Virus record (IMG/VR): IMGVR_UViG_2534681624_000015
Reading direction: 5' to 3' (one strand)
Length of the DNA stretch: 9,456 nt
Source: a virus
Lineage: Duplodnaviria; Heunggongvirae; Uroviricota; Caudoviricetes
The translations under genes and the position numbers were made by a program. Below, piece after piece: positions 2,969 through 8,907 of the stretch. A model generated the notes under the pieces. It did no database searches and had not been told where the DNA came from. It saw nothing but the letters and a program-made list of their open reading frames with translations. Every line of letters begins with the position of its first letter. The first letter of the stretch is position 1.

Positions 2969-3907
2969 ATGAATATTTCCGATATTCGCGCAGGACTGCG
3001 CACGCTTGTAGAAAATGAAGAAACCACCTTTAAACAAATTGCTCTTGAGAGCGGACTTTCTACCGGAACTATCAGTAGTTTTATCAATGATAAGTACAAC
3101 GGGGATAACGAGCGTGTTTCACAAATGCTGCAACGCTGGCTGGAAAAATATCATGCAGTTGCAGAACTACCTGAACCGCCCCGCTTTGTGGAAACGCAGA
3201 CGGTAAAACAAATCTGGACAAGTATGCGTTTTGCCAGCCTGACTGAAAGTATTGCTGTTGTATGTGGCAATCCTGGTGTGGGCAAAACCGAAGCGGCCCG
3301 TGAATATCGCCGCACCAATAACAATGTCTGGATGATCACCATTACGCCATCCTGTGCCAGCGTTCTGGAATGCCTGACTGAACTGGCGTTTGAGCTGGGA
3401 ATGAATGACGCACCACGCCGTAAAGGGCCACTCTCCCGTGCCCTGCGACGTCGCCTTGAAGGTACACAGGGGCTGGTTATCATCGACGAAGCTGATCATC
3501 TTGGTGCCGAAGTTCTGGAAGAACTCCGCCTGTTACAGGAATCAACCCGCACTGGCCTTGTGCTGATGGGAAATCACCGGGTTTATTCAAATATGACGGG
3601 AGGTAACAGAACGGTTGAATTTGCCCGTCTGTTTTCCCGTATTGCAAAGCGTACTGCAATTAATAAAACCAAAAAAGCCGATGTAAAAGCTATTGCGGAT
3701 GCCTGGCAGATTAACGGCGAAAAAGAACTGGAGTTATTACAGCAGATTGCGCAGAAACCAGGTGCGCTTCGCATTCTGAATCATTCACTTCGCCTTGCCG
3801 CCATGACGGCTCACGGTAAAGGTGAGCGTGTTAACGAAGATTATCTGCGTCAGGCTTTCCGTGAATTAGACCTGGACGTTGATATTTCAACGCTGCTGCG
3901 TAATTAA
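2969..3907 (+). CDS. B: MuB, AAA+ ATPase target-DNA activator of transposition (312 aa)
   Basis: 312-aa ORF directly after A with RBS ACGAGG 8 nt upstream. Walker A GNPGVGKT and Walker B LVIIDEADHL are present. Length and position match Mu B. Confidence 0.95.
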   Translation: MNISDIRAGLRTLVENEETTFKQIALESGLSTGTISSFINDKYNGDNERVSQMLQRWLEKYHAVAELPEPPRFVETQTVKQIWTSMRFASLTESIAVVCGNPGVGKTEAAREYRRTNNNVWMITITPSCASVLECLTELAFELGMNDAPRRKGPLSRALRRRLEGTQGLVIIDEADHLGAEVLEELRLLQESTRTGLVLMGNHRVYSNMTGGNRTVEFARLFSRIAKRTAINKTKKADVKAIADAWQINGEKELELLQQIAQKPGALRILNHSLRLAAMTAHGKGERVNEDYLRQAFRELDLDVDISTLLRN

Positions 3908-3922
3908 GAAGGAGAAGAAATT

Positions 3923-4150
3923 ATGATGGCCCGAAATATAAAAATGGCAACGGATGCGCAGAACTGGTTACAGGCGCGCGGGAGTCATGTAAATGAATCA
4001 TATCTCGGCGTGGCGCGTCCGATTCTTGAAATCACTTACCCACCGGTGGAACTGGTAAAAAACGCGGTCAGAATTATGGAGCATAAGTCCGGGGTGGCCC
4101 GTTCTGTATGGACGGCCCGTCTTAATGGTTGTCAGATAATCTGGAGGTAG
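3923..4150 (+). CDS. kil: Small early protein, kil-like by position and size (75 aa; 74 aa if second ATG)
   Basis: ORF immediately after B with strong RBS AAGGAG and ATGATG start. Mu kil is a ~74-aa gene in this exact position (established). Assignment is positional; sequence identity was not verified. Confidence 0.6.
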
Positions 4151-4157
4151 CATTTTA

Positions 4158-4328
4158 ATGATGGTGATAAACATTCACGATAATCTGGGAATCAGTAAGT
4201 TAATCAACCTTGATAATGTCAGTGTAATGGAAACGACTGTTGAGGGTGGTGTTGCTTTTGAATTTATGAAGTATGGGACTCCTTTGCATGTTGTCCGTGG
4301 TGCAGCGTGGTTTTCTTTAAGCAGGTAA
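4158..4328 (+). CDS. Hypothetical small protein (56 aa), not in the supplied ORF track
   Basis: ATGATG start at 4158 preceded by GGAGG (4144-4148) at 9-nt spacing, 7 nt after the kil-like stop; open to TAA at 4326-4328. Translation MMVINIHDNLGISKLINLDNVSVMETTVEGGVAFEFMKYGTPLHVVRGAAWFSLSR. Fills an otherwise uncoded 230-bp gap in a tightly packed operon. Confidence 0.45.
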   Translation: MMVINIHDNLGISKLINLDNVSVMETTVEGGVAFEFMKYGTPLHVVRGAAWFSLSR

Positions 4329-4383: not shown

Positions 4384-4647
4384 ATGGCAAAGGTAATTAT
4401 TGAAATTAAAAATACAGTATCTGGAACTAAAGGACGGCATTTGCGCACCAGTATTGCGGTAGGTGGTAGTGTGGAAATGGAAGGGGATGAGGCTACACTT
4501 GCAGGTCTGGTGGCGTTATTGGTGCTTAACAAAAGCCAGAAAATAATTAATGAGTCAGCTCATGAAGCCATTGAGATTTTGAAAAACGATGGTGTCATCA
4601 CAGGTGGCAGTGTCACTGAAATGGCTGTTGAAAAAACATGTCACTAA
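4384..4647 (+). CDS. Hypothetical early protein (87 aa)
   Basis: Strong RBS AAGGAG 8 nt upstream of ATG; same strand and tight packing as the early operon. No motif recognised. Confidence 0.7.
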   Translation: MAKVIIEIKNTVSGTKGRHLRTSIAVGGSVEMEGDEATLAGLVALLVLNKSQKIINESAHEAIEILKNDGVITGGSVTEMAVEKTCH

Positions 4648-5081: not shown

Positions 5082-5381
5082 ATGGTGACTGACATGAAGT
5101 GTAATCGTAAGCGCTGGTCACGCGAAGACCGGGAATTTATCGAAGCCAACGTCGGGAAAATGACCATTGAAGAAATGGCGGAAAAACTGAAAGTCGCCAC
5201 AACCGCCCTCCGGGCACATGCCAGAAGGCACGGAATATCATTGTGTGTATACCGAATCAGTGAACACGACAAATATTTGTGTCGTGAACTTTATAAAGAA
5301 GGGCTGGATATTCATGTCATTGCCCGAAAGATGGAATTAAGCAATCGGGCTGTATCCAGCATTGTATACAGCGGATATTAA
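5082..5381 (+). CDS. Hypothetical early protein with two HTH-like segments (99 aa)
   Basis: Starts directly after the previous stop (TGAATG). Segments KRWSREDREFIEANVGKMTIEEMAEKLKVATTALRAHARRHGIS and LYKEGLDIHVIARKMELSNRAVSSIV look like helix-turn-helix DNA-binding units (pattern recognition only). Confidence 0.65.
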   Translation: MVTDMKCNRKRWSREDREFIEANVGKMTIEEMAEKLKVATTALRAHARRHGISLCVYRISEHDKYLCRELYKEGLDIHVIARKMELSNRAVSSIVYSGY

Positions 5382-5400: not shown

Positions 5401-5925
5401 ATGGCTAAACCAGCAAAACGCATCAAAAGTGCCGCAGCGGCTTATGTGCCACAAAACCGCGATGCGGTGATTACCGATATTAAACGCATCGGGGATTTAC
5501 AGCGCGAAGCATCACGTCTGGAAACGGAAATGAATGATGCCATCGCGGAAATTACGGAGAAATTTGCGGCCCGGATTACACCGATTAAAACCGATATTGA
5601 AACCCTTTCAAAAGGCGTTCAGGGATGGTGTGAAGCGAACCGCGACGAACTGACGAACGGCGGCAAAGTGAAGACGGCGAATCTTGTCACCGGTGATGTA
5701 TCGTGGCGGGTCCGTCCACCATCAGTAAGTATTCGTGGTATGGATGCAGTGATGGAAACGCTGGAGCGTCTTGGCCTGCAACGCTTTATTCGCACGAAGC
5801 AGGAAATCAACAAGGAAGCGATTTTACTGGAACCGAAAGCGGTCGCAGGCGTTGCCGGAATTACAGTTAAATCGGGAATTGAAGATTTTTCCATTATTCC
5901 GTTTGAACAGGAAGCCGGTATTTAA
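5401..5925 (+). CDS. gam: Gam, host-nuclease inhibitor / DNA-end-binding protein (Ku-like), 174 aa
   Basis: 174-aa ORF with RBS AGGAG at 9-nt spacing. Sequence MAKPAKRIKSAAAAYVPQNRDAVITDIKRIGDLQREASRLE... matches my memory of Mu Gam, and the length is the same as Mu Gam. Confidence 0.9.
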   Translation: MAKPAKRIKSAAAAYVPQNRDAVITDIKRIGDLQREASRLETEMNDAIAEITEKFAARITPIKTDIETLSKGVQGWCEANRDELTNGGKVKTANLVTGDVSWRVRPPSVSIRGMDAVMETLERLGLQRFIRTKQEINKEAILLEPKAVAGVAGITVKSGIEDFSIIPFEQEAGI

Positions 5926-6023
5926 TACCACCATTAATATTTAATTAATTCACATTCTTTTAATTATGGCGCGATGCGTCAGGGGATTGCTCGCGCCTGA
6001 AACAGATTACTGAGGAATAAAAC

Positions 6024-6563
6024 ATGGTTGATGCAAAAATTCTGAATGGTGTCAGCATATTATTACGGGCTTACGGGCGCCTGACCTGCGGAGTTCTGGC
6101 TGAAAAAATGAATATGCTGCCCTCGTCAATGGTGTATTTCCTGCGTGATGCGGTTGATGCCGGAGTGCTCACCGAATGCAACGGATTTTATGACGTACCG
6201 CGTCCCCGTACAGAGCCGCCTGTAAGACGAAACGCAACTGAGCAGCCTGCTGTTGATGATGCGGTGTGGTGCAACTGGCGTCGCTCATTACCCTGGGTGG
6301 AAGGTAATACCATCCCTGCGCTGGCAAAAGAGTTTGCGACAGGCGTACTGACCTGTGAGTCAGTTCACATCGTTGCAGAAGTGGATGACGAGATGTGCAA
6401 ACAGGGAATGCCCCGTTTTGTGATGGCTTATATCGATATCTGGCTGGGGCGGTTTATTTGCAGTTCAGGCGCCTGGAATATCACCGACCATGTACTGCGT
6501 TATCTCATCATTGATTTTTCATCAGCACCGGGTGTGGTGCAGGAGGCTGGTTGTGAAATTTGA
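6024..6563 (+). CDS. Hypothetical early protein, N-terminal winged-helix-like segment (179 aa)
   Basis: RBS GAGGA 7 nt upstream of ATG. N-terminal LLRAYGRLTCGVLAEKMNMLPSSMVYFLRDAVDAGVLT resembles a wHTH recognition unit. Its stop overlaps the start of the next gene. Confidence 0.7.
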   Translation: MVDAKILNGVSILLRAYGRLTCGVLAEKMNMLPSSMVYFLRDAVDAGVLTECNGFYDVPRPRTEPPVRRNATEQPAVDDAVWCNWRRSLPWVEGNTIPALAKEFATGVLTCESVHIVAEVDDEMCKQGMPRFVMAYIDIWLGRFICSSGAWNITDHVLRYLIIDFSSAPGVVQEAGCEI

Positions 6564-7248
6564 AGACTGGGGTATTGATAAAAGTTGTGGCCGGGACGTC
6601 CTGGTGTACAAAAACTGTAGCGTGATTGAAGGAGAAGATGCCTGGCAGGTTCTGGATATACTTCGTTCTGCTTTATGCAGAGCTGGCTATGTTACGCCAG
6701 CGTCAGTTAATGGCGGAACTGCCACTACCTGTATCAGAAAGCAACTTTATAGTTTTTATACAGCCTACAACCAATGGTTAAAGAATGGGGCAATGGAGAC
6801 GGGCGATGATGTATTTATCCGGGCTGCCGGATTATGTGCCAATGCTTACGATTATTTTGAATCAACCGGTGCAGACAGTGAAGCCGCATTAGAACAATTA
6901 CATGCGGACTTTATCTCAGCAGGGCTGAATGCGATATTGCCATTTAACCGGGAGAGCGAACATTACATAAACGAAAGCAAATTAGCCAGATGCCACCTTA
7001 ATTCAGCACGTGTGGCATGGGTTGAAAAACACTGTATTAGTTCTGATTCAGAAATAACGGGGAAAAAGACAGTCGGTGAAACATCGTATTCGTGGCCGGG
7101 GACATTTACCACGGTGAAACAGGAATGCCCGACCTGCGGGAATGAATCCCCTGAATATCTGAAAGAGTGCCCTCATTGTGGCGGGCAGAAATGCAACCAC
7201 TGCGATATGGGCGATGACACGGCGTGCATGAATTGTGAAGGTGAGTGA
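6553..7248 (+). CDS. Hypothetical early protein with C-terminal 8-Cys double zinc-ribbon-like motif (231 aa from GTG 6553)
   Basis: ORF frame 6490..7248. I prefer GTG at 6553 because a canonical AGGAGG (6541-6546) sits 6 nt upstream and it overlaps the upstream stop by 11 nt (translational coupling); the ATG at 6490 has no RBS and would overlap 74 nt. C-terminus CPTCG-x11-CPHCG-x4-CNHC-x7-CMNC. Confidence 0.7.
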   Translation: MKFEDWGIDKSCGRDVLVYKNCSVIEGEDAWQVLDILRSALCRAGYVTPASVNGGTATTCIRKQLYSFYTAYNQWLKNGAMETGDDVFIRAAGLCANAYDYFESTGADSEAALEQLHADFISAGLNAILPFNRESEHYINESKLARCHLNSARVAWVEKHCISSDSEITGKKTVGETSYSWPGTFTTVKQECPTCGNESPEYLKECPHCGGQKCNHCDMGDDTACMNCEGE

Positions 7249-7249
7249 T

Positions 7250-7561
7250 ATGAATAATGGTGTATTTTCAAAATCAGAAGAGCTTGCCGCCCTGCTGATT
7301 GCCGGTGGTTTGCCGAAAAAAGAAGTGCATGACTTTGTGAGTTTTGTATATGAGTCGTCTCATGAAAAAGCTATTGATGAAGTCATGGCGTACCGGTTTG
7401 GCATTATTGCTGAGTCACTGAGTCCTCACTGGATTATTGAAAATCTCCGCACTATTGCTGATGGTAACAATAAAGTGGCGGCTGTCGCCGCCCTTGATGC
7501 GCTGCAACGTATGAACAGGGAACTATTCAATCCCGAGTTTCTTTTTAAGAAACGAGGTTAA
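7250..7561 (+). CDS. Hypothetical early protein (103 aa from ATG 7250; GTG 7235 alternative)
   Basis: ATG at 7250 follows the upstream stop (TGAtATG) with GGTGA 6 nt upstream. No motif recognised. Its 3' end overlaps the 3' end of a convergent minus-strand ORF by 39 bp. Confidence 0.65.
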   Translation: MNNGVFSKSEELAALLIAGGLPKKEVHDFVSFVYESSHEKAIDEVMAYRFGIIAESLSPHWIIENLRTIADGNNKVAAVAALDALQRMNRELFNPEFLFKKRG

Positions 7562-7939
7562 CCACTGTTTGCCGACGTCTGTTACGAGCGTCATCGGGGC
7601 GTCGGCAAGGTCCTGTTTTATGCGCTCAAGAATGGGTTTTTGATGTAGTGCTTTCGCAAAATCATGACCATCTTGTGTAAGTCTGACACTGGTGCCTGAA
7701 TATGAATATCCGAGGCTTGTTGGGGTGAGACCAATGCTTTTTGCGGTGCCTGTTTCCAGATATCTGTTGCTGATAAAACCATTTTCAACCAGCAACAGAA
7801 GATGGAAAACCAGCTTCTGATGGCTGTCGCTGTGCCGCTGAGAACAATCCCAGCCGACATCTTCCAGTCGAATGAATGCGGTGTCGGCCTCCAGAAAAAC
7901 ATCAAATATTCTGGCTATCTCGTCATAATCAATTTTCAT
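7523..7939 (-). CDS. Reverse-oriented hypothetical protein (138 aa), possible small winged-helix-like phage accessory protein
   Basis: Only ORF of 60 aa or more covering 7562-7801 on either strand apart from a shorter minus-strand ORF in another frame. Minus-strand ATG at 7937-7939 preceded by AAGGA at ~7-nt spacing; non-repetitive, balanced composition. Segments KLVFHLLLLVENGFI and RLTQDGHDF and the C-terminal KKKLG recall a small phage-associated domain family of unknown function (DUF2513-like, from memory, unverified). Confidence 0.55.
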   Translation of the reverse strand: MKIDYDEIARIFDVFLEADTAFIRLEDVGWDCSQRHSDSHQKLVFHLLLLVENGFISNRYLETGTAKSIGLTPTSLGYSYSGTSVRLTQDGHDFAKALHQKPILERIKQDLADAPMTLVTDVGKQWLTSFLKKKLGIE

Positions 7940-7969
7940 ATCTCATTCCTTAATATGAGAGGTGAGCAA

Positions 7970-8521
7970 ATGAATCGCACATCCCTGATTAAATTAATCC
8001 ATGTCGCCCGTCGGGAGCTACAACTCGACGACGACACTTACCGCGCTTTTCTGATGCAGAAAACGGGCAAAACCAGTTGCCGCGAGCTGACGGTCACGCA
8101 ACTGGAACAGGTGCTCGATGCCATGAAAGAACGCGGCTTTAAGAAGCTGAATAAACATCCACGTCGCCGCTTTAAGGGGTATGCCACTCCCCGCGAGAAG
8201 GTATACAAAGTCTGGCAGCAGATGGCAGAAGACGGTTTTATTACCGATGGCGGTGATGTGGCGCTGGATAAATATGTTCAGCGCCTGACAGCGAAACGCA
8301 ACGGCGGACAGGGTGTTTCCACACTGGCGTGGTGCCACGGAGAATCGTTGCAGGTTGTGCTTGAAACCCTGAAACAGTGGCACATCCGCTGTATTCGTGA
8401 AGCCTTTTCCCGTCACGGGCTTCCATTGCCGGTCAGTCCGTCCGGGCGTGAACTGCGCGGCTATGATGCCATGACGGCGGCTTATGCCCATGCCAGAAAG
8501 ACGCGGAGGATGGCACAATGA
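7970..8521 (+). CDS. gemA: GemA, early gene-expression modulation protein (183 aa)
   Basis: ATG at 7970 with GAGGTGA 7 nt upstream gives 183 aa, the size I recall for Mu GemA. N-terminus MNRTSLIKLIHVARRELQLDDDTYRAF... The stop overlaps the mor start (ATGA), as expected for the gemA-mor pair. Confidence 0.8.
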   Translation: MNRTSLIKLIHVARRELQLDDDTYRAFLMQKTGKTSCRELTVTQLEQVLDAMKERGFKKLNKHPRRRFKGYATPREKVYKVWQQMAEDGFITDGGDVALDKYVQRLTAKRNGGQGVSTLAWCHGESLQVVLETLKQWHIRCIREAFSRHGLPLPVSPSGRELRGYDAMTAAYAHARKTRRMAQ

Positions 8522-8907
8522 CGGAAGATTTATTTGGTGATTTGCAGGATGACACCATTCTGGCACATCTTGACAATCCCGCAGAGGATACGTCACGCTT
8601 TCCGGCACTGCTGGCGGAGCTGAACGATTTACTGCGCGGGGAATTGTCCCGGCTGGGTGTTGATCCTGCCCATTCACTGGAGATTGTTGTGGCTATCTGT
8701 AAGCATCTGGGCGGCGGCCAGGTCTACATTCCACGCGGTCAGGTTCTGGACTCGCTGATTCGGGATTTGCGTATCTGGAATGATTTTAACGGTCGCAACG
8801 TCAGCGAACTGACCACCCGTTATGGTGTCACTTTCAATACGGTTTACAAGGCCATTCGCCGGATGCGACGGCTGAAATACCGCCAGTACCAGCCCTCACT
8901 TCTGTAA
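8518..8907 (+). CDS. mor: Mor, activator of the middle promoter (129 aa)
   Basis: 129-aa ORF, the known length of Mu Mor, coupled to gemA via ATGA overlap. C-terminal HTH-like segment VSELTTRYGVTFNTVYKAIRR. Last gene before a strong intrinsic terminator, as in the Mu early operon. Confidence 0.9.
   Translation: MTEDLFGDLQDDTILAHLDNPAEDTSRFPALLAELNDLLRGELSRLGVDPAHSLEIVVAICKHLGGGQVYIPRGQVLDSLIRDLRIWNDFNGRNVSELTTRYGVTFNTVYKAIRRMRRLKYRQYQPSLL

What the first reader, a model, noticed from the sequence alone, without database searches (positions are those of the whole stretch)
6024..7248. Translationally coupled pair: wHTH-like protein plus 8-cysteine zinc-ribbon protein
The 179-aa ORF has a winged-helix-like N-terminus. 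The downstream gene most likely starts at GTG 6553, with a canonical AGGAGG 6 nt upstream and an 11-nt overlap with the upstream stop. It ends in CPTC-x13-CPHC-x5-CNHC-x8-CMNC, eight Cys in four CxxC pairs, typical of a double zinc ribbon or treble clef. A coupled DNA-binder plus zinc-ribbon pair could be a nucleic-acid-targeting or regulatory module.
Basis: seen in the sequence. Interest (0 to 1): 0.45.

Follow-up and report, generated by a model that had tools for sequence, protein, structure and literature searches.

The report
Mu gp11 plus gp13 zinc-domain fusion
These are two neighbouring early genes of a phage Mu-like prophage, the counterpart of Mu gp11 and a rare version of Mu's small 8-cysteine protein gp13 fused to an unrelated swapped-in front part; both belong to known families of unknown function, so the finding is real but fairly ordinary.

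Summary
ORF1 (6024-6563) and ORF2 are real genes. ORF2 starts at GTG 6553, 6 nt after AGGAGG, and overlaps ORF1's stop by 11 nt. It ends in four CxxC pairs, but the true spacing is x10/x4/x7, not x13/x5/x8.

The window is the left end of a Mu-like prophage. ORF1 is the Mu gp11 orthologue (92% identical, Pfam Gp11_C). ORF2 is a mosaic. The Mu gp12 ORF has been replaced by an unrelated two-module cassette with no stop codon. That cassette reads in frame into codon 5 of Mu gp13, the 60-aa 8-Cys protein. This allele is rare but recurrent: 2 of 5426 complete E. coli genomes, PHROG 6418, and the exact protein in 99 blocks of the assembly index.

The "dedicated pair" idea is not supported. gp11 occurs without the zinc module, and the zinc module occurs without gp11. 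Tight or overlapping junctions are normal in this operon.

Function remains unknown. My best guess is an early accessory host-interaction protein.

The parts
6024..6563 (+). ORF1, 179 aa: orthologue of phage Mu gp11. N-terminal three-helix, winged-helix-like domain (res 1-58), basic Pro-rich linker (59-89), C-terminal Gp11_C domain (90-166).
6541..6546 (+). Shine-Dalgarno AGGAGG, 6 nt upstream of GTG 6553. It is the last stretch homologous to Mu, where the same SD serves gp12.
   Evidence: The Mu record annotates an RBS at the equivalent position.
6553..7248 (+). ORF2, 231 aa from GTG: a three-module mosaic protein (A + B + gp13 zinc module). It overlaps the ORF1 stop by 11 nt.
   Evidence: phrog_6418 matches full length 1-231. 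Identical gene calls in two E. coli RefSeq records. The exact protein is in 99 blocks of the assembly index. dN/dS 0.40 overall.
6553..6717 (+). Module A (res 1-55): predicted beta-beta-beta-alpha unit. Few relatives (P0178 112 aa, P0188 64 aa).
6718..7047 (+). Module B (res 56-165): helical domain from a family that mostly occurs as standalone proteins of about 105 aa. Invariant residues are Y69, W75, G93-L94-C95, P130-F131 and N150. No Pfam or PDB relative.
   Evidence: 536 cluster representatives at E<=1e-3 for the whole-protein query, most of the 150 listed matching this module. pLDDT about 90. Invariant columns. No Pfam or PDB hit. BFVD hits are uncharacterised proteins, mainly of Achromobacter, Burkholderia and Delftia phages.
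7048..7116 (+). Linker (res 166-188), low-confidence and probably disordered. It contains the right-hand mosaic junction at 7076/7077, which corresponds to codon 5 of Mu gp13.
   Evidence: pLDDT below 50 for residues 160-187. blastn junctions.
7117..7245 (+). Zinc module (res 189-231), equivalent to Mu gp13 residues 18-60: CPTC-x10-CPHC-x4-CNHC-x7-CMNC with an invariant K-C-x2-C-D-x-G-D motif. Net charge -6.
   Evidence: 93-96% identical to gp13 of Mu, SfMu and vB_YpM_5. phrog_5584 E 3e-39. Cys conservation. The first two knuckles match the RadA N-terminal C4 finger with the same spacing, E 0.0014. pLDDT 81-87. Charge. dN/dS 0.15-0.22.
6547..7076 (+). Replaced cassette. This 530 nt has no DNA homology to Mu, D108, SfMu or the Yersinia Mu-like phages, and occupies exactly the place of the 531-nt gp12 ORF.
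   Evidence: blastn piece boundaries. No phage record covers 80% or more of the query. No similarity to Mu gp12 by blastp at E<=1 and no PF26885 hit.
7250..7561 (+). Downstream neighbour, a gp14-position gene (103 aa, phrog_1988). It starts 1 nt after the ORF2 stop. A gene of 96-103 aa follows the zinc module in every enterobacterial locus examined.

Best explanation
SHOWN. The finding covers two consecutive genes of the long early (semi-essential) operon of a Mu-like transposable prophage. ORF1 is the orthologue of Mu gp11. ORF2 is a mosaic allele of the gp12-gp13 slot. The whole gp12 ORF, from just after its Shine-Dalgarno sequence to its stop, has been exchanged for an unrelated cassette. 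That cassette encodes two phage accessory modules (A and B) and has no stop codon, so translation runs in frame into codon 5 of gp13. gp13 is the conserved 8-Cys mini-protein that is free-standing (60 aa) in Mu. ORF2 starts at GTG 6553 using the SD that serves gp12 in Mu.

INFERRED. The 11-nt overlap with gp11 gives ordinary operon-style coupled or re-initiated translation. It is not a sign of a dedicated two-protein machine. The zinc module probably binds two Zn ions: Cys 1-4 as a RadA-like C4 ribbon and Cys 5-8 as a short knuckle pair. It would then be a small, rigid, very acidic protein-binding domain. The module recurs as a small protein that overlaps the end of the upstream gene. It also occurs fused to unrelated N-terminal modules in several proteins, two of which I checked in their genomic context. 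I therefore think it works together with whatever variable cassette lies upstream. The likely role is as part of an early, non-essential host-interaction function (host takeover or counter-defence), not as a DNA- or RNA-binding regulator. gp11 may use its winged-helix-like domain for DNA or protein contacts, but that is untested.
For: Identity and synteny. The window shows c, ner, A, B, Kil, Gam, GemA and Mor in Mu order. ORF1 is 92% identical to Mu gp11, and the ORF2 tail is 93-96% identical to gp13.

Mosaic junctions. Homology to Mu ends at 6546 and resumes at 7077.

Start codon.

The allele is real and selected. The exact protein is in 99 index blocks. Copies about 6% diverged keep the frame, with dN/dS 0.15-0.40.

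Not an obligate pair. gp11 occurs without the zinc module in L006-L008. The zinc module occurs without gp11 in L012.

Operon packing. The Mu junctions are gp11/gp12 -1 nt, gp12/gp13 -14, gp13/gp14 +1 and GemA/Mor -4. There is no + strand promoter or terminator in 5800-8000. The junction has no special RNA structure (z 0.03).

Zinc module. The eight Cys and the CDxGD motif are conserved. The RadA-finger match has E 0.0014. The module is acidic in all 16 relatives. It is fused to other N-terminal modules in P0010 (271 aa, Salmonella Mu-like prophage), P0198, P0183 and P0216. It is free-standing in most distant beta- and gammaproteobacterial loci, and genes of Mu-like prophages lie near some of them.
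Against: There are no functional data for gp11, gp12, gp13 or modules A and B. PADLOC, NCBIfam, PHROGs and Pfam give no functional label, and no paper was found. Metal binding is inferred from sequence only. Some of the 'fusions' in distant taxa may be gene-calling extensions. Acidity does not exclude nucleic-acid binding through a local basic patch, or binding by a partner. The protein-binding and host-interaction role is an argument from context, not a test.
Confidence: 0.7

Rival explanations
1. gp11 (a winged-helix DNA binder) and the zinc-ribbon protein form a dedicated, translationally coupled two-component nucleic-acid-targeting or regulatory module.
For: An 11-nt overlap with a strong SD. 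A WH-like fold is predicted for the gp11 N-terminus. gp11 and a gp13-type module co-occur in Mu, D108, SfMu, the Yersinia Mu-like phages and Salmonella prophages.
Confidence: 0.1
2. The zinc module is a small nucleic-acid-binding zinc finger that acts as a regulator, like the Mu Com translational activator or the Ogr/Delta-type activators. The N-terminal modules would only modulate it.
For: Mu already uses a small (about 60 aa) C4 zinc protein, Com, as an RNA-binding translational activator (established knowledge). The first knuckle pair resembles the RadA zinc finger.
Against: The Pfam scan at E<=1 gave only sub-threshold DnaJ_CXXCXGXG, HypA and DZR hits. No hit to a Com-type or any other regulator zinc-finger family appeared. 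Net charge is -1 to -11 with pI about 4 across the family. The invariant non-Cys residues are acidic or glycine (CDMGDD), not basic or aromatic.
Confidence: 0.1
3. The fusion is a recombination accident with no function of its own. Only the gp13 part, or none of it, matters, and modules A and B are passenger sequence on the way to decay.
For: It is rare: 2 of 5426 complete E. coli genomes and 0 of 50,697 phage records. The linker is predicted to be disordered.
Against: The frame is intact in copies about 6% diverged, with dN/dS of 0.40 in module B and 0.15-0.22 in the zinc module. The exact protein is in 99 index blocks. Module B is confidently folded (pLDDT about 90) and keeps all family-invariant residues. 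Module B shows signs of exchange with the standalone 129-aa genes.
Confidence: 0.1

Closest known systems
Phage Mu gp11 (formerly E10-E12; Pfam PF25754 Gp11_C; phrog_1949)
   Same: 92% identity over 174 aa. Same position after gam. Same SD for the next gene embedded in its 3' end.
   Different: Three extra C-terminal residues, because the swapped cassette moves the stop codon. Function is unknown in Mu as well.
Phage Mu gp13 (formerly E14; phrog_5584), a 60-aa 8-Cys protein
   Same: Residues 176-231 of ORF2 are 93-96% identical to gp13 residues 5-60. All eight Cys and the CDMGDD motif are kept. The same downstream neighbour position is kept.
   Different: In Mu it is a free-standing gene whose start overlaps the end of gp12 by 14 nt. 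Here its start codon and SD are gone, so it is the C-terminal domain of a 231-aa protein.
Phage Mu gp12 (formerly E13; Pfam PF26885 Phage_Mu_Gp12)
   Same: Same slot and the same SD. The replaced DNA is nearly the same length (530 nt against the 531-nt gp12 ORF).
   Different: No detectable sequence similarity. ORF2 modules A and B are unrelated to gp12.
PHROG 6418 / RefSeq WP_244588664.1 (hypothetical protein, 231 aa)
   Same: Same three-module architecture, full-length match, same gene context.
   Different: WP_244588664.1 is about 86% identical in protein (about 94% at DNA level), and the differences are concentrated in module B. Function is unknown.
RadA/Sms N-terminal C4 zinc finger (PDB 5lkm, 8rxc)
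   Same: The first two knuckles share the C-x2-C-G-x-x-x-P-x-Y-L-x-x-C-P-x-C-G pattern and the x10 spacing (E 0.0014).
   Different: The match covers only 26 residues. There is no RadA ATPase or Lon-like domain. The second four-Cys site has no counterpart.

Membership tests
Mu gp11 family (PF25754 Gp11_C) | Pfam HMM match above the gathering score | tested here: met
   128 bits against a cutoff of 27, residues 90-166.
Mu gp11 family (PF25754 Gp11_C) | Location in a Mu-like early operon downstream of gam | tested here: met
   Gam is at 5401-5925 and ORF1 at 6024-6563. The order is the same in Mu, vB_YpM_5 and E. coli prophages.
Mu gp13 family (phrog_5584) | Eight conserved Cys in four CxxC pairs plus the K-C-x2-C-D-M-G-D motif | tested here: met
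   All are present. phrog_5584 E 3.4e-39. Alignment.
Mu gp13 family (phrog_5584) | Free-standing small protein of about 45-70 aa | tested here: not met
   Here it is the C-terminal domain of a 231-aa protein. The gp13 start codon and SD are absent.
PHROG 6418 (231-aa fused form) | Full-length match to the 231-position profile | tested here: met
   E 1.3e-165. Residues 22-252 of the long ORF align to profile positions 1-231.
Mu gp12 (PF26885) | Sequence match to gp12 in the slot after gp11 | tested here: not met
   No blastp hit at E<=1 and no PF26885 hit at E<=1.
Winged-helix DNA-binding domain (MarR/ArsR-like) | Three-helix bundle plus beta-hairpin wing fold | tested here: inconclusive
Winged-helix DNA-binding domain (MarR/ArsR-like) | Sequence-specific DNA binding | not testable with these tools
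   Needs EMSA or ChIP. The domain has net charge -1.
Double zinc ribbon (Pfam DZR PF12773) | HMM match above the gathering score | tested here: not met
   13.4 bits against 27.3, E 0.09.
DnaJ central CXXCXGXG zinc domain (PF00684) | Four CxxCxGxG repeats and an HMM match above the gathering score | tested here: not met
   17.3 bits against 32.7. The Gly signature is not conserved in the family, and the x10/x4/x7 spacing differs from DnaJ.
Lar restriction-alleviation family (TIGR03655) | HMM match above the cutoff | tested here: not met
   Mu gp13 scores 12.6 bits against 39.6, E 0.13.
Known anti-phage defence proteins (PADLOC) | Any HMM match | tested here: not met
   No hit for gp11, ORF2 or Mu gp12 at E<=1.
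Zinc-binding protein in general | Bound metal, expected at 2 Zn per module | not testable with these tools
   Inferred only from the eight invariant Cys and the RadA-finger similarity.

The most novel reading that the evidence does not exclude
The gp13 zinc module is a common 'handle' subunit of a polymorphic early system in Mu-like phages. It would bind one fixed host or phage target, while the variable cassette upstream supplies interchangeable effector or decoy functions. That cassette is gp12 in Mu, modules A+B here, and other unrelated modules in Salmonella prophages. The fusions seen here would then be Rosetta-stone evidence for that partnership. The slot would be a hotspot for counter-defence or host-takeover genes, and it would include two uncharacterised domain families: module B and the acidic 8-Cys module.
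Probability: 0.2. Interest if true: 0.55.

Novelty: new member of a known kind. Interest (0 to 1): 0.25.

Why it matters
It does not change the understanding of Mu. It does tidy up a poorly annotated stretch of a model phage. It shows that gp13 is a conserved, acidic, probably two-zinc mini-domain found well beyond enterobacteria, often in Mu-like prophages. It shows that this domain is sometimes fused to the gene upstream. It also shows that the gp12 slot is a cassette-exchange site. If the module turns out to be an adaptor for variable early effectors, this slot would be a useful place to look for new host-takeover or anti-defence functions. Module B would also deserve a family definition: whole-protein HMMER hits number 536 cluster representatives, most of them to this module, and it has no Pfam or PDB relative.

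Tried and rejected
- Sequence and profile searches of PDB with gp11, ORF2, the zinc-module profile and the module B profile gave nothing significant. The one exception is the RadA finger at E 0.0014.
- The BFVD Foldseek search gave only uncharacterised phage proteins. The afdb50 library was not available.
- PADLOC, NCBIfam and Pfam gave no functional family for ORF2 or for modules A and B.
- The idea that an RNA hairpin sequesters the SD and enforces coupling is rejected, because the junction folds no better than shuffles (z 0.03).
- The idea of an internal promoter or terminator that separates the two genes is rejected.
- DnaJ-like, HypA-like, Lar-like and DZR membership are all below cutoff.
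- Six literature searches found no experimental work on Mu gp11, gp12 or gp13.
- Cys-to-zinc site assignment from the AF2 model could not be done, because coordinates are not exposed.

Full report
CONTEXT

The window is the left end of a Mu-like transposable prophage (Muvirus type). The ORF list shows the repressor gene on the minus strand (1-525), then ner (671-934), transposase A (942-2930) and B (2969-3907). A run of small early genes follows, then Gam (5401-5925), the two genes of the finding, GemA (7970-8521) and Mor (8518-8907). Megablast of 5900-7400 hits Mu, D108, SfMu and the Yersinia Mu-like phages at 92-96% identity. No phage record covers more than 65% of the query, because a central block is missing in all of them.

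CHECK OF THE OBSERVATION

- ORF1 is 6024-6563 (179 aa).
- AGGAGG lies at 6541-6546 and GTG at 6553.
- The alternative ATG at 6490 has no SD upstream. It lies in DNA that is gp11 coding sequence in Mu.
- Three independent lines favour GTG 6553:
  - The 231-position PHROG 6418 profile aligns from residue 22 of the long ORF.
  - Relatives of module A start 'MRCEDWKID' and 'MRLEDWKID' at the equivalent residue.
  - The two E. coli RefSeq records give a 696-nt gene with the same 11-nt overlap. The gene calls on contigs that carry the identical protein do the same.
- The Cys cluster is real but its spacing was misread. It is CPTC-x10-CPHC-x4-CNHC-x7-CMNC.

WHAT THE TWO GENES ARE

ORF1 is the orthologue of Mu gp11. 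It is 92% identical, matches Pfam Gp11_C at 128 bits and matches phrog_1949.

ORF2 has three modules:

- **Module A (residues 1-55)** has only a few relatives.
- **Module B (residues 56-165)** belongs to a family that mostly occurs as standalone proteins of about 105 aa. The whole-protein search found 536 cluster representatives at E<=1e-3, and most of the 150 listed match this module. The family has invariant Y, W, G-L-C, P-F and N positions and no Pfam or PDB relative.
- **The tail (residues 176-231)** is 93-96% identical to residues 5-60 of Mu gp13, a free-standing 60-aa protein.

At the DNA level, homology to Mu stops at 6546, the last base of the SD. It resumes at 7077-7079, which is gp13 codon 5. 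So exactly the gp12 ORF has been replaced by an unrelated cassette that carries no stop codon, and gp13 has become a C-terminal domain. The SD used by ORF2 is the one Mu annotates for gp12.

IS THE FUSION REAL?

Yes. The evidence:

- The identical 231-aa protein is indexed in 99 blocks of the assembly collection, with the same gene calls.
- Two complete E. coli genomes carry a copy about 6% diverged at the DNA level with an intact frame.
- dN/dS is 0.40 for module B, 0.15-0.22 for the zinc module and 0.21-0.30 for gp11.
- Module A is identical between these copies, while module B has 27% synonymous divergence. The divergent stretch of the E. coli copies resembles the standalone 129-aa module B proteins. 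This points to continuing exchange inside the cassette.

The allele is rare. It is in 2 of 5426 complete E. coli genomes and 0 of 50,697 phage records. Standalone gp13 is seen on at least 1000 contigs.

IS IT A FUNCTIONAL PAIR?

The comparative data say no.

- In L006-L008, gp11 is followed after a 30-nt gap by a module-B-only protein and then GemA. There is no zinc module.
- In the E. coli SE11 prophage (L012), the zinc module is present but gp11 is absent.
- In Mu, gp12 lies between gp11 and the zinc gene. In the Salmonella prophages two or three genes lie between them.
- Overlapping or abutting junctions are the rule in this operon. In Mu they are gp11/gp12 -1, gp12/gp13 -14, gp13/gp14 +1 and GemA/Mor -4. 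In the window ORF2 and the next gene are 1 nt apart, and GemA and Mor overlap by 4 nt.
- There is no + strand promoter or terminator between 5800 and 8000.
- The junction RNA folds no better than shuffled sequence (z 0.03).

Coupling is therefore plausible, but it is generic operon economy.

STRUCTURE

THE ZINC MODULE

- All eight Cys, plus K-C-x2-C-D-x-G-D, a Tyr and a Pro, are conserved in relatives down to 56% identity.
- A profile of the module matches the N-terminal C4 zinc finger of RadA with the same C-x2-C-x10-C-x2-C spacing (E 0.0014). This suggests that Cys 1-4 form one ribbon and Cys 5-8 a second, short site.
- Matches to DnaJ, HypA, DZR and Lar are all below their cutoffs.
- The module is strikingly acidic in all 16 relatives tested: net -1 to -11 on about 40 residues, -4 or lower in 15 of them, with pI about 4. 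Whole ORF2 and gp11 have pI about 4.9. This argues against direct nucleic-acid binding. It favours a protein-binding role, possibly against a basic, DNA-binding surface.
- The module also sits at the C-terminus of unrelated N-terminal modules. Examples are P0010 (271 aa, in a Salmonella Mu-like prophage), P0198, P0183 and P0216.
- Where it is free-standing, its start overlaps the end of the upstream gene.
- Distant relatives occur in beta- and gammaproteobacteria, mostly as small ORFs. Genes typical of Mu-like prophages (Portal_Mu, Mor, Gam, GemA, Mu F) lie near some of them.

MECHANISM, AS FAR AS IT CAN BE CARRIED

Shown: identity, mosaic origin, start site, conservation, and the lack of obligate linkage between the two genes.

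Inferred:

- Two structural zinc sites.
- A protein-binding function for the acidic module.
- Cooperation with the variable upstream cassette. The fusions are the argument for this.
- A non-essential early host-interaction role. This rests on the position in the semi-essential early region of Mu (established knowledge of Mu genetics) and on the cassette-like variability of the slot.

No experimental literature on gp11, gp12 or gp13 was found.

VERDICT

These are known, uncharacterised Mu-family genes in a rare fused arrangement that is already present in PHROGs and RefSeq. Interest is modest. The most useful leads are that gp13 is a widespread acidic 8-Cys module prone to fusion, and that the gp12 slot is a cassette-exchange site.

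Noticed in passing
window 7523-7939 (- strand); replaced block 7500-7969: A 138-aa gene on the opposite strand (phrog_585, unknown function, no Pfam hit) sits in a second block with no homology to Mu. Its 3' end overlaps the gp14-position gene convergently by 39 nt. A GC-rich terminator-like hairpin lies just downstream on the minus strand (7492-7477). The same gene (98.6% identical) is in the E. coli SE11 Mu-like prophage. It looks like a moron-type insertion with its own transcription unit.
   Followed up: partly
window 5926-6023 (gam-gp11 spacer), hairpin about 5968-5997: This 98-nt AT-rich intergenic gap is unusually long. It holds a GC-rich stem-loop (GGCGCGA...TCGCGCC; fold z -1.6) without a T tail. 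SfMu-type prophages carry an extra DUF5420 gene at this point (homology breaks at 6006-6009). It may be another cassette insertion site.
   Followed up: partly
window 6718-7047 (module B of ORF2): Module B belongs to a large uncharacterised family, mostly standalone proteins of about 105 aa. Some members are fused to other modules, and one (P0007) carries DUF551. The structure search also picked up uncharacterised proteins of Achromobacter, Burkholderia and Delftia phages. The family has invariant G-L-C, P-F and N residues and no Pfam or PDB relative, so it is a candidate for a new domain family.
   Followed up: partly
window 5082-5381: The 99-aa early protein (Mu gp9 position) gives weak helix-turn-helix matches (RWP-RK E 2.4e-4, HTH_Tnp_1, sigma-70 region 4), all below their cutoffs. 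The SfMu homologue is annotated as a transcriptional regulator.
   Followed up: no
window 4150-4274 and 4404-4646: There are further mosaic breaks relative to Mu and the Yersinia Mu-like phages in the small genes after kil. For example, a 56-aa ORF at 4158-4328 stands where Mu has the 76-aa gp6. The whole B-to-GemA interval is a patchwork of exchangeable small cassettes.
   Followed up: no
window 6024-6563 (gp11): Cys22, Cys83 and Cys111 are invariant and His156 nearly invariant across 34 gp11 homologues. This could mark a metal or redox site spanning the two domains. It was not examined further.
   Followed up: no
L012 (E. coli SE11 prophage) 3365-4062: In this Mu-like prophage gp11 and gp12 are absent. 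Three small ORFs (102, 78 and 60 aa) fill the space between gam and the zinc-module gene. This is another allele of the variable slot.
   Followed up: no
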